In this document: positions 1-3,000 of the stretch, one piece after another
Position numbering within the stretch: position 1 is the first letter of the stretch
Layout of the letters: each line of letters starts with the position of its first letter
Source of the DNA: Escherichia coli
Lineage (GTDB): Bacteria; Pseudomonadota; Gammaproteobacteria; Enterobacterales; Enterobacteriaceae
Length of the DNA: 64,000 nucleotides
Direction: 5' to 3' (one strand)
Assembly (NCBI RefSeq): GCF_041248615.1
Contig: NZ_CP158426.1
Made by a program: the position numbers

Positions 1-3000
1 CCGATTCGCTGGCCTTAAAAAGAGTGGAACTCGGCATTGTGACGTTCGGCCCGGTGCATGTGGAACAACCCTTTACCAGCGCCGCTAATTTTTTCCCGCC
101 CATCCTGTTTGCCCAGGGCGATACACCAATGGGCGCTGCCATTACCAAAGCCCTGGATATGGTAGAGGAGCGGAAACGTGAGTATCGTGCAAATGGTATT
201 TCGTATTATCGCCCGTGGATTTTCCTGATCACCGATGGCGCTCCAACCGATGAGTGGCAGGCTGCCGCCAACAAAGTGTTTCAGGGGGAAGAAGATAAGA
301 AGTTTGCCTTCTTTTCCATCGGTGTTCAGGGGGCGGATATGAAGACTTTGGCACAAATCAGCGTTCGTCAGCCTTTGCCACTGCAGGGATTACAATTCCG
401 TGAACTGTTTAGCTGGTTATCCAGTTCGCTGCGTTCGGTTTCCCGCTCCACGCCGGGAACGGAAGTTGTGCTGGAAGCGCCAAAAGGCTGGACGTCAGTG
501 TGAGCTGGCGTCTGGTCTATGCATCAACCGTTGGAACGTCGCACATCAGCGCGGACTTGCCTTGCCAGGATGCCTGCCAGATGCAGGTTGCCTGGTTAAA
601 TGACCAGCAGCCATTATTGTCGGTATTTGTCGCCGATGGCGCAGGTAGCGTCTCGCAGGGTGGCGAAGGTGCGGAGCTTGCCGTTAATGAAGCGATGGCT
701 TATATGATGCAAAAATTGCAGGGCGGGGAATTGGGGCTTAATGATGTCCTCGCAACGGATATTGTGCTGACCGTTCGTCAGCGACTTTTTGCCGAGGCGG
801 AAGCCAAAGAATTAGCTGTTCGCGATTTTGCCTGCACGTTTATGGGATTGATTTCATCAGCTAATGGCACCCTGATTATGCAGATTGGCGATGGCGGCGT
901 GGTGGTAGATTTGGGGCACGGTCTGCAACTGCCGCTCACGCCGATGGTAGGTGAATATGCCAATATGACACACTTCATTACTGATGAAGATGCCGTTTCC
1001 AGACTGGAAACTTTCACCAGCACTGAGCGTGCGCATAAAGTTGCAGCATTTACGGATGGTATCCAGCGGCTGGCGTTAAATATGCTGGATAATTCTCCCC
1101 ATGTGCCTTTCTTTACCCCGTTTTTCAATGGGCTGGCGTCAGCAACGCAGGAACAACTCGATTTATTACCTGAATTGTTAAAGCAGTTTTTGTCCAGCCC
1201 GGCGGTAAACGAGCGTACGGATGATGATAAAACGTTGGCACTGGCGCTGTGGTTACCATGAAACCCACTTTATATACTGCTACTGGTGAGTGCGTTACGC
1301 CAGGCTGTGAACTGGGCAAAGGTGGCGAAGGCGCGGTTTATGATATCGAGGAGTTTGTCGATAGCGTCGCCAAGATTTATCACACGCCGCCACCCGCCTT
1401 AAAACAGGACAAACTTGCCTTTATGGCTGCGACAGCTGACGCACAGTTGCTGAATTATGTCGCCTGGCCGCAGGCAACGCTTCACGGTGGACGAGGCGGA
1501 AAAGTTATCGGTTTTATGATGCCAAAAGTTTCTGGTAAAGAACCGATTCATATGATCTATAGCCCGGCACATCGTCGCCAGAGTTACCCTCATTGTGCGT
1601 GGGATTTTCTACTCTATGTTGCGCGTAATATTGCTTCATCTTTTGCTACGGTTCACGAGCACGGGCATGTCGTGGGTGACGTAAACCAGAACAGCTTTAT
1701 GGTAGGCCGTGACAGCAAAGTGGTGTTGATTGATAGCGACTCCTTTCAGATTAACGCCAACGGCACACTGCATTTATGCGAAGTCGGCGTGTCGCATTTT
1801 ACGCCGCCAGAGCTGCAAACCTTGCCATCATTTGTCGGCTTTGAACGCACCGCGAATCACGATAATTTTGGCCTTGCGTTGCTGATTTTTCACGTCTTGT
1901 TTGGTGGTCGGCATCCTTATTCCGGTGTACCGCTTATCTCTGATGCGGGTAATGCGCTGGAGACGGATATTGCCCATTTCCGTTATGCCTACGCGTCAGA
2001 TAATCAGCGACGTGGTTTAAAACCGCCGCCACGATCTATTCCGCTGTCGATGTTACCGGGCGATGTTGAAGCCATGTTTCAGCAGGCATTCACGGAAAGT
2101 GGCGTGGCAACCGCGCGTCCGACGGCAAAAGCGTGGGTAGCGGCACTTGATTTACTACGCCAACAGTTAAAGAAATGTACCGTTTCGGCAATGCATGTTT
2201 ACCCCGGTCATTTGACTGACTGCCCGTGGTGTGCGCTGGATAATCAAGGCGTTATCTATTTTATTGATCTCGGCGAAGAGGTCATTACCACCGGCGGTGA
2301 TTTTGTGCTGGCGAAAGTCTGGGCAATGGTGATGGCGTCAGTAGCACCACCAGCATTGCAACTGCCATTACCCGATCATTTCCAACCGACTGGCAGGCCG
2401 CTTCCTTTAGGCCTGTTACGGCGTGAATACATCATTCTGATTGAGATCGCACTGTCAGCGTTATCGCTGCTGCTTTGCGGCCTTCAGGTAGAACCGCGTT
2501 ATATCATTTTGGTTCCCGTGCTGGCGGCTATCTGGATTATTGGCAGCCTGACAAGCAAAGCGTACAAAGCAGAAATCCAGCAACGTCGTGAGGCGTTTAA
2601 TCGCGCGAAAATGGACTATGACCATTTAGTAAGCCAGATCCAACGGCTGGGCGGGCTGGAAGGTTTTATCGCCAAACGGGCGATGATCGAAAAAATGAAG
2701 GACGAAATTCTCGGGTTACCGGAAGAGGAGAAACGCGCTCTGGCAGCACTTCATGACACTGCAAGGGAACGGCAGAAGCAGAAGTTTCTGGAGGGATTTT
2801 TTATTGATGTTGCCTCTATTCCCGGCGTTGGCCCTGCGCGTAAAGCGGCGTTACGGTCTTTTGGTATTGAAACAGCCGCAGATGTTACCCGTCGTGGCGT
2901 TAAGCAAGTGAAAGGGTTTGGCGACCATCTGACCCAGGCGGTTATCGACTGGAAAGCGAGTTGTGAACGCCGTTTTGTGTTCAGGCCGAACGAAGCGGTA

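What the first reader, a model, noticed from the sequence alone, without database searches (positions are those of the whole stretch)
2794..2958. YegI kinase carries a C-terminal tandem helix-hairpin-helix-like tail after two TM helices
Seen in sequence: after the N-terminal kinase-like domain and two hydrophobic helices (around aa 380-430), the C-terminal region contains 'FIDVASIPGVGPARKAALRSFGIETAADV' and 'VKQVKGFGDHLTQAVIDW'. Both fit the h-x-x-h-x-G-h-G-x-x-x-A pattern of helix-hairpin-helix motifs, which are non-sequence-specific DNA-binding modules in proteins such as RuvA and ComEA. Inference: a membrane-tethered kinase with a DNA-binding tail would be an unusual architecture, compatible with sensing DNA at the inner membrane. 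This is pattern recognition by eye, not a profile hit.
Basis: inference. Interest (0 to 1): 0.5.

Follow-up and report, generated by a model that had tools for sequence, protein, structure and literature searches.

The report
YegI kinase's cytoplasmic helix-hairpin-helix tail
The E. coli membrane kinase YegI does carry a double helix-hairpin-helix domain, a fold that usually binds DNA, in its cytoplasmic tail, but genome databases already annotate it and nobody has tested whether it binds DNA.

Summary
Window 2794-2958 encodes residues 516-570 of the 649-codon yegI reading frame. Both quoted motifs are there (residues 518-546 and 551-568), after a two-helix membrane hairpin (about 393-413 and 417-437).

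Together the two motifs form one (HhH)2 domain:
- Pfam HHH_5 is the only Pfam hit in YegI, and it recurs weakly in 18 of 54 relatives.
- Both G-h-G hairpins are conserved.

The domain appears to sit at the tip of a roughly 200-residue antiparallel coiled-coil stalk. Published PhoA/LacZ mapping puts that stalk in the cytoplasm.

The architecture is not unusual. [quoted passage not shown] The tail has about 2000 cluster representatives. The locus is present in 5398 of 5426 complete E. coli genomes.

yegL, pphC and yegI form a vWA/PP2C/kinase triad of the TerY-P type.

DNA binding, and DNA as the kinase's activating signal, are plausible but untested. The two YegI/PphC preprints I could read never mention the domain.

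Verdict: real, already annotated, modest interest.

The parts
1..503 (+). 3' part of yegL, the vWA-domain protein and first gene of the triad. The window starts inside the gene.
   Evidence: Pfam VWA, E = 3.8e-7. Weak PADLOC TerY hit. RefSeq name 'vWA domain-containing protein'.
500..1261 (+). pphC (yegK), a PP2C-type Ser/Thr phosphatase and second gene of the triad.
   Evidence: Pfam PP2C_2, E = 1.8e-50. RefSeq name PphC. It dephosphorylates YegI in vitro.
1258..3198 (+). yegI, a Ser/Thr kinase of 646 aa counted from the ATG at 1258. The mechanical ORF starts at a GTG at 1249.
   Evidence: ORF list. ATGA overlap with the pphC stop. 100% identity to RefSeq YegI. Shown to be an active kinase in 10.1101/819920.
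1258..2163 (+). Divergent kinase domain (ORF aa 4-305).
   Evidence: GxGGEG, K42, D144, N146 and D162-x-D164-S165 are invariant in 43 of 43 relatives. No Pfam Pkinase hit. Weak hits to lanthionine-synthetase and Bud32 kinase models. Activity is published.
2176..2232 (+). Invariant C310-x5-H316-x8-C325-P-W-C328 motif, probably a zinc knuckle or ribbon, directly after the kinase domain.
   Evidence: All four ligand positions and W327 are invariant in 43 of 43 full-length relatives. TerY-P kinases are described as fused to a C-terminal zinc ribbon. The fold was not modelled here.
2425..2559 (+). Transmembrane hairpin: TM1 about aa 393-413, short periplasmic loop QVEPR, TM2 about aa 417-437.
   Evidence: Hydropathy scan. 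PhoA-LacZ fusions at 340, 390, 439 and 646 were cytoplasmic; those at 414 and 432 were periplasmic or in the membrane.
2569..2790 (+). Ascending helical arm of the cytoplasmic stalk (ORF aa 441-514).
2797..2973 (+). (HhH)2 domain (ORF aa 517-575). HhH-1 is aa 518-538 with hairpin P-G-V-G. The connector helix is aa 541-546. HhH-2 is aa 551-568 with hairpin K-G-F-G and a long last helix.
2965..2988 (+). Conserved E-R-x-F-x-F-D/N-P linker after the (HhH)2 domain. Its role is unknown.
   Evidence: E573 in 52 of 54, F576 in 53 of 54, F578 in 48 of 54, P580 in 46 of 54.
3004..3192 (+). Descending 63-residue helix that returns to the membrane (ORF aa 586-648). It carries the published autophosphorylation sites S602 and S644 (ORF S605 and S647).
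   Evidence: AF2 helix at tail residues 146-208. In relatives with a longer C-terminus, a TM segment follows within about 10-20 residues of the tail end. Phosphosites are; they are not conserved.

Best explanation
The region is one (HhH)2 domain, two helix-hairpin-helix motifs joined by a connector helix. It appears to sit at the tip of a roughly 200-residue antiparallel coiled-coil stalk.

The stalk starts right after the second transmembrane helix of YegI, projects into the cytoplasm and returns towards the membrane.

YegI is the kinase of a conserved three-gene module: YegL (vWA), PphC (PP2C phosphatase) and YegI. The module is of the TerY-P triad type, in which the kinase typically carries a nucleic-acid-binding appendage.

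Proposed mechanism:
1. The (HhH)2 tip binds the DNA backbone without sequence specificity, on the cytoplasmic side near the inner membrane.
2. Binding several tails to one DNA molecule brings kinase domains together.
3. This drives the concentration-dependent trans-autophosphorylation already measured for YegI.
4. PphC resets the switch. The vWA protein YegL is a likely partner or substrate.

Shown (by prediction or conservation here, or by published experiment): the fold, its conservation, the cytoplasmic location, the triad, and kinase and phosphatase activity. Inferred: DNA binding, DNA as the activating signal, and the downstream output.
For: **Fold**
- HHH_5 is the only Pfam hit in YegI. 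It has E = 4.9e-4 on the tail and recurs in 18 of 54 relatives.
- Both hairpin glycine motifs are conserved.
- Template-free AF2 gives pLDDT 97 for the tail and 95-97 over the HhH core.
- Foldseek's top 50 hits are nearly all HhH-containing DNA-binding proteins: Rad51/RadA/Dmc1 and paralogs, alpha-CTD, Hjm, ComEA, DisA, RuvA, XPF/ERCC1. Probabilities reach 0.99 and TMq 0.67.

**Geometry**
- In every relative with a long C-terminal extension, a TM segment follows the tail directly, so both ends of the tail lie at the membrane.

**Topology**
- PhoA-LacZ mapping puts residues 439 and 646 in the cytoplasm.

**Triad**
- PP2C_2 E = 1.8e-50 and VWA E = 3.8e-7 in the window.
- The same VWA-PP2C-kinase order occurs in 4 of 4 distant relatives.
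- PphC dephosphorylates YegI.
- YegI activation shows second-order kinetics and no extracytoplasmic sensor is present.

**Link to nucleic acid**
- The (HhH)2 domain has a net positive charge (mean +2.2) with conserved R531/K532 and R569.
- Other TerY-P kinases carry an OB-fold or a zinc ribbon at the same position.
- Overproducing YegI or YegL raises endogenous DNA damage in E. coli, 5-fold or more for YegI.
- COG4248 already names the domain as DNA-binding.
Against: - No experiment on DNA binding was found. No paper in the searchable library mentions both YegI and helix-hairpin-helix.
- Sequence-level support is marginal. HHH_5 covers only 36 of 57 model positions. A family profile searched against PDB sequences gave only coiled-coil noise. 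Foldseek E-values are not significant (0.17 or higher).
- The positive charge is modest.
- PADLOC's models do not recognise YegI or PphC as TerY-P components.
- In E. coli the locus is core rather than on a mobile defence island.
- No condition is known under which it is expressed.
- I could not inspect model coordinates, so the antiparallel packing of the stalk is inferred.
Confidence: 0.5

Rival explanations
1. The (HhH)2 domain is a protein-protein interaction or dimerisation module, not a DNA binder. At the tip of the stalk it would pair with a second YegI tail, or with YegL, PphC or a substrate. That would control the dimerisation-dependent activation of the kinase, as (HhH)2 domains do in XPF-ERCC1 and NusA AR2/alpha-CTD, and as SAM domains do in eukaryotic signalling proteins.
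For: - XPF/ERCC1 appears in Foldseek.
- YegI activation is second order in enzyme concentration, which implies oligomerisation.
- The invariant W568 and the conserved ERxFxFDP motif next to the domain are not features of DNA-binding HhH motifs and suggest a specific protein interface.
- The net charge is only mildly positive.
Against: - The best matches by both methods are DNA-binding (HhH)2 domains.
- The canonical G-h-G hairpins and the basic residues just after hairpin 1 are conserved.
- The domain is basic, not acidic like the NusA acidic repeats.
- Related triad kinases carry nucleic-acid-binding folds at this position.
- Overproduction causes DNA damage.
Confidence: 0.3
2. The tail binds DNA but only as a tether. 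It would position the kinase, and the triad, next to the nucleoid or to DNA entering the cell, without DNA regulating catalytic activity. The activating signal would arrive elsewhere, for example through the vWA protein's metal site or the membrane hairpin.
For: - The fold evidence is the same as for the main explanation.
- TerY-P triads are predicted to be metal-sensing phosphorylation switches.
- Purified YegI autophosphorylates in vitro with no DNA listed in the reaction buffer.
- Some relatives add periplasmic TPR or TonB_C domains after a third TM helix, which suggests inputs from outside the cytoplasm.
Against: Nothing tested here separates tethering from sensing. The rigid stalk and the conserved linker motif suggest a coupling device rather than a loose tether.
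Confidence: 0.15
3. The resemblance is a chance match of two short glycine-containing motifs, and there is no HhH fold.
For: - The generic pattern occurs at least twice in 4% of shuffled YegI sequences.
- Pfam and Foldseek E-values are marginal.
- A family profile found no HhH protein in PDB sequences.
Against: - The motifs are conserved across relatives down to about 30% identity.
- HHH_5 is the only Pfam family that recurs among relatives.
- A confident template-free model gives the five-helix (HhH)2 fold, and the best hits by two independent structure-comparison methods are (HhH)2 domains.
Confidence: 0.03

Closest known systems
COG4248 / 'protein kinase YegI' family (NCBI also names members 'helix-hairpin-helix domain-containing protein')
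   Same: It is this family. The protein is 100% identical to RefSeq YegI. [quoted passage not shown]
   Different: Nothing differs. This work adds only predicted anatomy to the annotation: the stalk geometry, the invariant zinc-knuckle motif, and the variants with a third TM helix.
TerY-P triad (vWA TerY + PP2C + Ser/Thr kinase). Versions with an OB-fold kinase defend against T7-like phages; versions with a zinc-ribbon kinase accompany CoCoNuT restriction systems.
   Same: - Same three-gene composition and order.
- The kinase carries a nucleic-acid-binding-type appendage, and a C/H/C/C motif follows the kinase domain.
- Relatives sit next to defence genes.
   Different: - The appendage here is a TM hairpin, a coiled-coil stalk and an (HhH)2 domain, not an OB-fold.
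- PADLOC models do not recognise YegI or PphC.
- In E. coli the locus is core and apparently silent.
- No anti-phage activity has been shown for it.
Rad51/RadA/Dmc1 N-terminal (HhH)2 domain
   Different: In Rad51 the domain is attached to a recombinase ATPase core in a soluble filament protein. There is no membrane anchor, coiled-coil stalk or kinase.
DisA (DNA integrity scanning protein: diadenylate cyclase, helical spine, C-terminal HhH domain)
   Same: A signalling enzyme joined through a long helical spacer to an HhH domain. It appears among the Foldseek hits with probability up to 0.75. From general knowledge, DNA bound at the HhH end modulates DisA's enzyme activity. That is the logic proposed here.
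   Different: DisA has a different enzyme, is a soluble octamer and has no TM hairpin. The comparison is an analogy of design, not homology of the whole protein.
ComEA and RuvA domain II
   Same: Same (HhH)2 fold class. ComEA is also a membrane-anchored protein with an (HhH)2 DNA-binding domain (general knowledge).
   Different: - ComEA's domain faces outwards to capture incoming DNA, whereas YegI's tail is cytoplasmic.
NusA AR2 / RNA polymerase alpha-CTD / XPF-ERCC1 (HhH)2 domains and SAM domains
   Different: These use the fold wholly or partly for protein-protein contacts. The NusA repeats are acidic, whereas YegI's domain is mildly basic.

Membership tests
(HhH)2 domain (Pfam HHH_5, HhH clan; SCOP 'SAM domain-like' fold) | Two HhH motifs about 30 residues apart, each with a G-h-G type hairpin, joined by a connector helix | tested here: met
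   P-G-V-G at aa 525-528 and K-G-F-G at 555-558, with connector IETAADV. The hairpins are conserved in 48-53 of 54 relatives.
(HhH)2 domain (Pfam HHH_5, HhH clan; SCOP 'SAM domain-like' fold) | Significant match to a curated HhH profile | tested here: inconclusive
   HHH_5 scores 18.7-21.0 bits with E = 0.0025 (whole protein) or 4.9e-4 (tail), covering model positions 1-36 of 57. Among relatives, 2 of 54 match at E <= 0.001 and 18 of 54 at E <= 0.1. A family profile searched against PDB sequences found no HhH protein.
(HhH)2 domain (Pfam HHH_5, HhH clan; SCOP 'SAM domain-like' fold) | Five-helix fold superposable on solved (HhH)2 domains | tested here: met
   [not shown]
(HhH)2 domain (Pfam HHH_5, HhH clan; SCOP 'SAM domain-like' fold) | Non-sequence-specific binding of the DNA backbone | not testable with these tools
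   Indirect evidence only: net charge about +2 to +3, conserved R531/K532 and R569, and the DNA-damage-up phenotype on overproduction.
TerY-P phosphorylation triad | Adjacent, co-oriented genes for a vWA (TerY-like) protein, a PP2C phosphatase and a Ser/Thr kinase | tested here: met
   VWA, PP2C_2 and the kinase, with gene overlaps at 500-503 and 1258-1261. The same order occurs in 4 of 4 distant relatives.
TerY-P phosphorylation triad | Kinase followed by a zinc ribbon or another nucleic-acid-binding domain | tested here: inconclusive
   The C-x5-H-x8-C-P-W-C motif is invariant in 43 of 43 relatives and an (HhH)2 domain is present. The zinc-binding fold itself was not modelled.
TerY-P phosphorylation triad | Recognition by the profile models used to call TerY-P defence systems (PADLOC) | tested here: not met
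   The kinase hits only PD-T4-6 and MkoA weakly. The phosphatase hits nothing. The truncated vWA hits TerY at E = 0.0087.
TerY-P phosphorylation triad | Protection against phage | not testable with these tools
   Reported only for OB-fold versions of the triad.
Hanks-type (eukaryote-like) Ser/Thr kinase | Match to Pfam Pkinase and the canonical HRD and DFG motifs | tested here: not met
   No Pkinase hit. The catalytic loop is VGDVNQNS and the metal-binding loop is DSD. Kinase activity is nevertheless shown experimentally.
YegI family (COG4248) | Full-length similarity with the order kinase, TM hairpin, HhH tail | tested here: met
   100% identity to RefSeq YegI. Relatives at 56-62% identity align over 95-100% of the length. 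The tail aligns end to end in relatives.

The most novel reading that the evidence does not exclude
YegI is a DNA-activated membrane kinase. A rigid cytoplasmic stalk, roughly 10 nm long by my estimate from helix lengths, holds an (HhH)2 'probe' under the inner membrane. DNA that comes close, such as injected phage or plasmid DNA or a displaced or damaged nucleoid, bridges several probes. This switches on trans-autophosphorylation and starts a vWA/PP2C/kinase immune or stress response. The module is in the core genome of E. coli but has escaped functional assignment because it is silent in the laboratory.
Probability: 0.3. Interest if true: 0.6.

Novelty: already known. Interest (0 to 1): 0.3.

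Why it matters
YegI is one of the few Ser/Thr kinases of E. coli. Its activity, phosphatase partner and membrane topology are published, but its stimulus and substrates are explicitly unknown. The preprints I could read state that it lacks a sensor domain and never mention the tail.

The (HhH)2 domain on a stalk offers a concrete and cheaply testable candidate for the missing input: DNA near the membrane.

It also ties YegI to two other lines of evidence. One is the TerY-P family of phosphorylation switches, some of which defend against phage. The other is the finding that overproducing YegI or YegL damages DNA.

The domain assignment itself is not news. It is in the COG and in NCBI product names.

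Tried and rejected
**Searches that gave nothing useful**
- PDB sequence search with the tail alone gave only noise apart from a weak Rad51 hit at E = 0.25. With the 54-sequence family profile it returned only coiled-coil proteins.
- NCBIfam gave only sub-threshold hits. One was DNA polymerase IV over residues 509-555, which I take to be its HhH-containing region.
- PADLOC gave no TerY-P call.

**Papers I could not read**
- Anantharaman et al. 2012 (the TerY-P paper), the FEBS Letters version of the YegI paper and the J Bacteriol PphC paper were not held. I used the bioRxiv versions and secondary citations instead.
- No supplementary tables were held for the DNA-damage screen.
- The one paper matching 'YegI' plus 'helix-hairpin-helix' was a false match on an author's name.

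**Ideas considered and dropped**
- yegD (Hsp70-like, convergent) as part of the system: it is not conserved next to the triad in the four distant relatives examined.
- A link to the neighbouring HhH-GPD glycosylase gene alkA: no evidence beyond proximity.
- A real antisense gene under the finding: the minus-strand ORFs at 2751-3044 and 2851-3108 lie wholly inside the conserved yegI frame, and RefSeq annotates nothing there.

**Not run**
- A scan of genome contigs for taxonomic spread. It is costly and would not change the verdict.
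Full report
**1. What is at the coordinates**

The window's first 5 kb carry the 3' part of yegL, then pphC (yegK), yegI, yegD on the minus strand, and alkA. The stretch is 100% identical to an E. coli chromosome, and 5398 of 5426 complete E. coli genomes carry at least 80% of it.

The finding (2794-2958) lies in yegI, ORF 1249-3198. The two quoted peptides are ORF residues 518-546 (nt 2800-2886) and 551-568 (nt 2899-2952).

The true start is probably the ATG at 1258. 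It overlaps the pphC stop codon as ATGA and gives the annotated 646-aa protein. Published residue numbers therefore equal ORF numbers minus 3.

There is no yegJ between pphC and yegI. This is the arrangement described for B-type and most non-K-12 strains.

**2. Checking the observation**

- Taken alone, the short pattern is weak evidence.
- Other evidence supports it. Pfam HHH_5 is the only Pfam family hitting YegI: residues 518-553, E = 0.0025, improving to 4.9e-4 when the tail is scanned alone. It is the only family that recurs among relatives (18 of 54 at E <= 0.1).
- NCBIfam gives a sub-threshold match of residues 509-555 to DNA polymerase IV, which I take to be its HhH-containing region.
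- A PDB sequence search gives a weak alignment to the N-terminal HhH region of an archaeal Rad51, E = 0.25.
- The whole 209-residue tail is a conserved module with 2029 representatives of 50%-identity clusters at E <= 0.001.
- In an alignment of 54 diverse tails, the consensus is IPGIGPxRKAxLxSxGIETAADV...VxGFGxxLTxxLxxW. G-F-G is present in 53 of 54, the first hairpin glycine G528 in 48 of 54, and L535, A543 and W568 are invariant.

**3. Structure**

- Template-free AlphaFold2 on the tail gives mean pLDDT 97.1. It predicts helices over tail residues 2-74, a compact region at 78-134 and one 63-residue helix at 146-208.
- I therefore modelled residues 510-587 alone. The model has pLDDT 95-97 across the core.
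- Foldseek gives non-significant E-values (0.17 or higher) for this short domain. Its top 50 are nevertheless nearly all HhH-containing DNA-binding proteins: Rad51/RadA/Dmc1 and paralogs, alpha-CTD, Hjm, ComEA, DisA, RuvA and XPF/ERCC1. Probabilities reach 0.99 and query TM-scores 0.67.
The two motifs form one (HhH)2 domain.

**4. Geometry and topology**

- Rajagopalan and Dworkin showed with PhoA-LacZ fusions that positions 340, 390, 439 and 646 are cytoplasmic and 414 and 432 are periplasmic or in the membrane. The tail is therefore cytoplasmic.
- Among relatives with more than about 100 residues after the tail, a hydrophobic segment follows within about 10-20 residues of the tail's end. Periplasmic-type domains come after it: TPR repeats, or TonB_C in a kinase-less protein.
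- I could not inspect coordinates, so this packing is inferred.

**5. Context**

- The window's upstream genes are a PP2C_2 phosphatase (E = 1.8e-50) and a VWA protein (E = 3.8e-7).
- The order VWA, PP2C, kinase recurs in four of four distant relatives examined. Their neighbours include AbiH, a KAP NTPase, GmrSD, an MmeI-like enzyme, a Tn7-like element and a SMODS gene.
- This is the TerY-P triad composition. The literature describes such triads as phosphorylation switches whose kinase carries a C-terminal zinc ribbon or OB-fold, and the OB-fold versions defend against T7-like phages.
- YegI has an invariant C-x5-H-x8-C-P-W-C motif right after the kinase domain, in 43 of 43 relatives. This fits the zinc-ribbon description.
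- PADLOC's models do not recognise YegI or PphC. I therefore call it a TerY-P-type triad rather than a member of the validated defence family.

**6. Function**

Published facts:
- YegI is an active, Mn-preferring kinase with non-canonical motifs.
- It autophosphorylates with second-order kinetics.
- PphC dephosphorylates it.
- It has no extracytoplasmic sensor, no known stimulus and no known substrate, and no condition giving robust expression of the locus has been found.

Two further observations point towards DNA or fitness effects:
- Overproduction of YegI, and separately of YegL, placed both among the DNA-damage-up proteins of E. coli.
- yegI is hit repeatedly in the long-term evolution experiment.

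The (HhH)2 domain is mildly basic (mean +2.2), with conserved R531/K532 and R569.

My best explanation, at confidence 0.5 for the whole chain, is that the tip binds the DNA backbone non-specifically and that DNA bridging of tails promotes kinase trans-activation, with PphC as the reset.

The main rival (0.3) is that the domain is a protein-interaction or dimerisation module, as in NusA AR2 or XPF/ERCC1. The invariant W568 and the conserved ERxFxFDP motif after the domain are not explained by DNA binding and may favour this rival. A tether-only role (0.15) and a chance match (0.03) are the remaining alternatives.

**7. Novelty**

- NCBI names many members 'helix-hairpin-helix domain-containing protein', and JGI names them 'DNA-binding helix-hairpin-helix protein with protein kinase domain'.
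- What remains open is functional. I found no paper that discusses or tests this domain in YegI.
- The assignment supplies a ready hypothesis for the kinase's missing stimulus, which gives the finding modest interest.

Noticed in passing
window 2176-2232 (yegI ORF aa 310-328): The motif C-x5-H-x8-C-P-W-C directly after the kinase domain is invariant in 43 of 43 full-length relatives. It is probably a zinc knuckle or ribbon, like the one described for TerY-P kinases. The YegI preprint's account of the kinase does not cover this motif.
   Followed up: partly
window 1258-2163 (yegI kinase domain): The experimentally active kinase domain gets no Pfam Pkinase hit at all. HHH_5 is the only Pfam hit for the whole protein. 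The catalytic loop is VGDVNQNS and the metal-binding loop is DSD, with D144, N146, D162, D164, S165 and Q167 invariant in the family.
   Followed up: partly
window 2965-2988 (yegI ORF aa 573-580) and W568 (nt 2950-2952): An invariant Trp and a nearly invariant E-R-x-F-x-F-D/N-P stretch lie at the exit of the (HhH)2 domain. They are not part of the HhH consensus and their role is unexplained. They might form a hinge or a protein interface that couples the tip to the stalk.
   Followed up: no
P0178, P0153, P0214, P0253 (locus L004 6001-8739); P0249 (L003 209-2395): Some relatives add a third TM helix directly after the tail. TPR repeats follow, presumably periplasmic. A kinase-less protein instead has an N-terminal Cys-rich region, the same stalk-HhH module, a TM helix and TonB_C. 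The stalk-(HhH)2 unit therefore looks like a portable membrane-proximal module.
   Followed up: partly
L001, L002, L004 (flanks of the triad in distant relatives): In other bacteria the VWA-PP2C-kinase triad sits beside defence or mobile genes: AbiH, a KAP NTPase, GmrSD, an MmeI-like methyltransferase, SMODS with a predicted effector, and Tn7-like TniQ/TniB. In E. coli it is a core chromosomal locus.
   Followed up: partly
window 1255-1264: The pphC stop and the yegI start overlap as ATGA, and there is no yegJ between them. This is the B-type (non-K-12) arrangement. Some complete E. coli genomes in the spread sample carry the yegJ insertion.
   Followed up: yes
[not shown]
   Followed up: no
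window 2751-3044 (-) and 2851-3108 (-): Two antisense ORFs of 97 and 85 codons overlap the finding. They lie entirely within the conserved yegI frame and RefSeq annotates nothing there. They are probably spurious.
   Followed up: partly
yegI and yegL (literature): An E. coli overproduction screen lists both YegI and YegL as DNA-damage-up proteins, and yegI is reported as repeatedly mutated in the long-term evolution experiment. Neither paper connects this to the HhH domain.
   Followed up: partly
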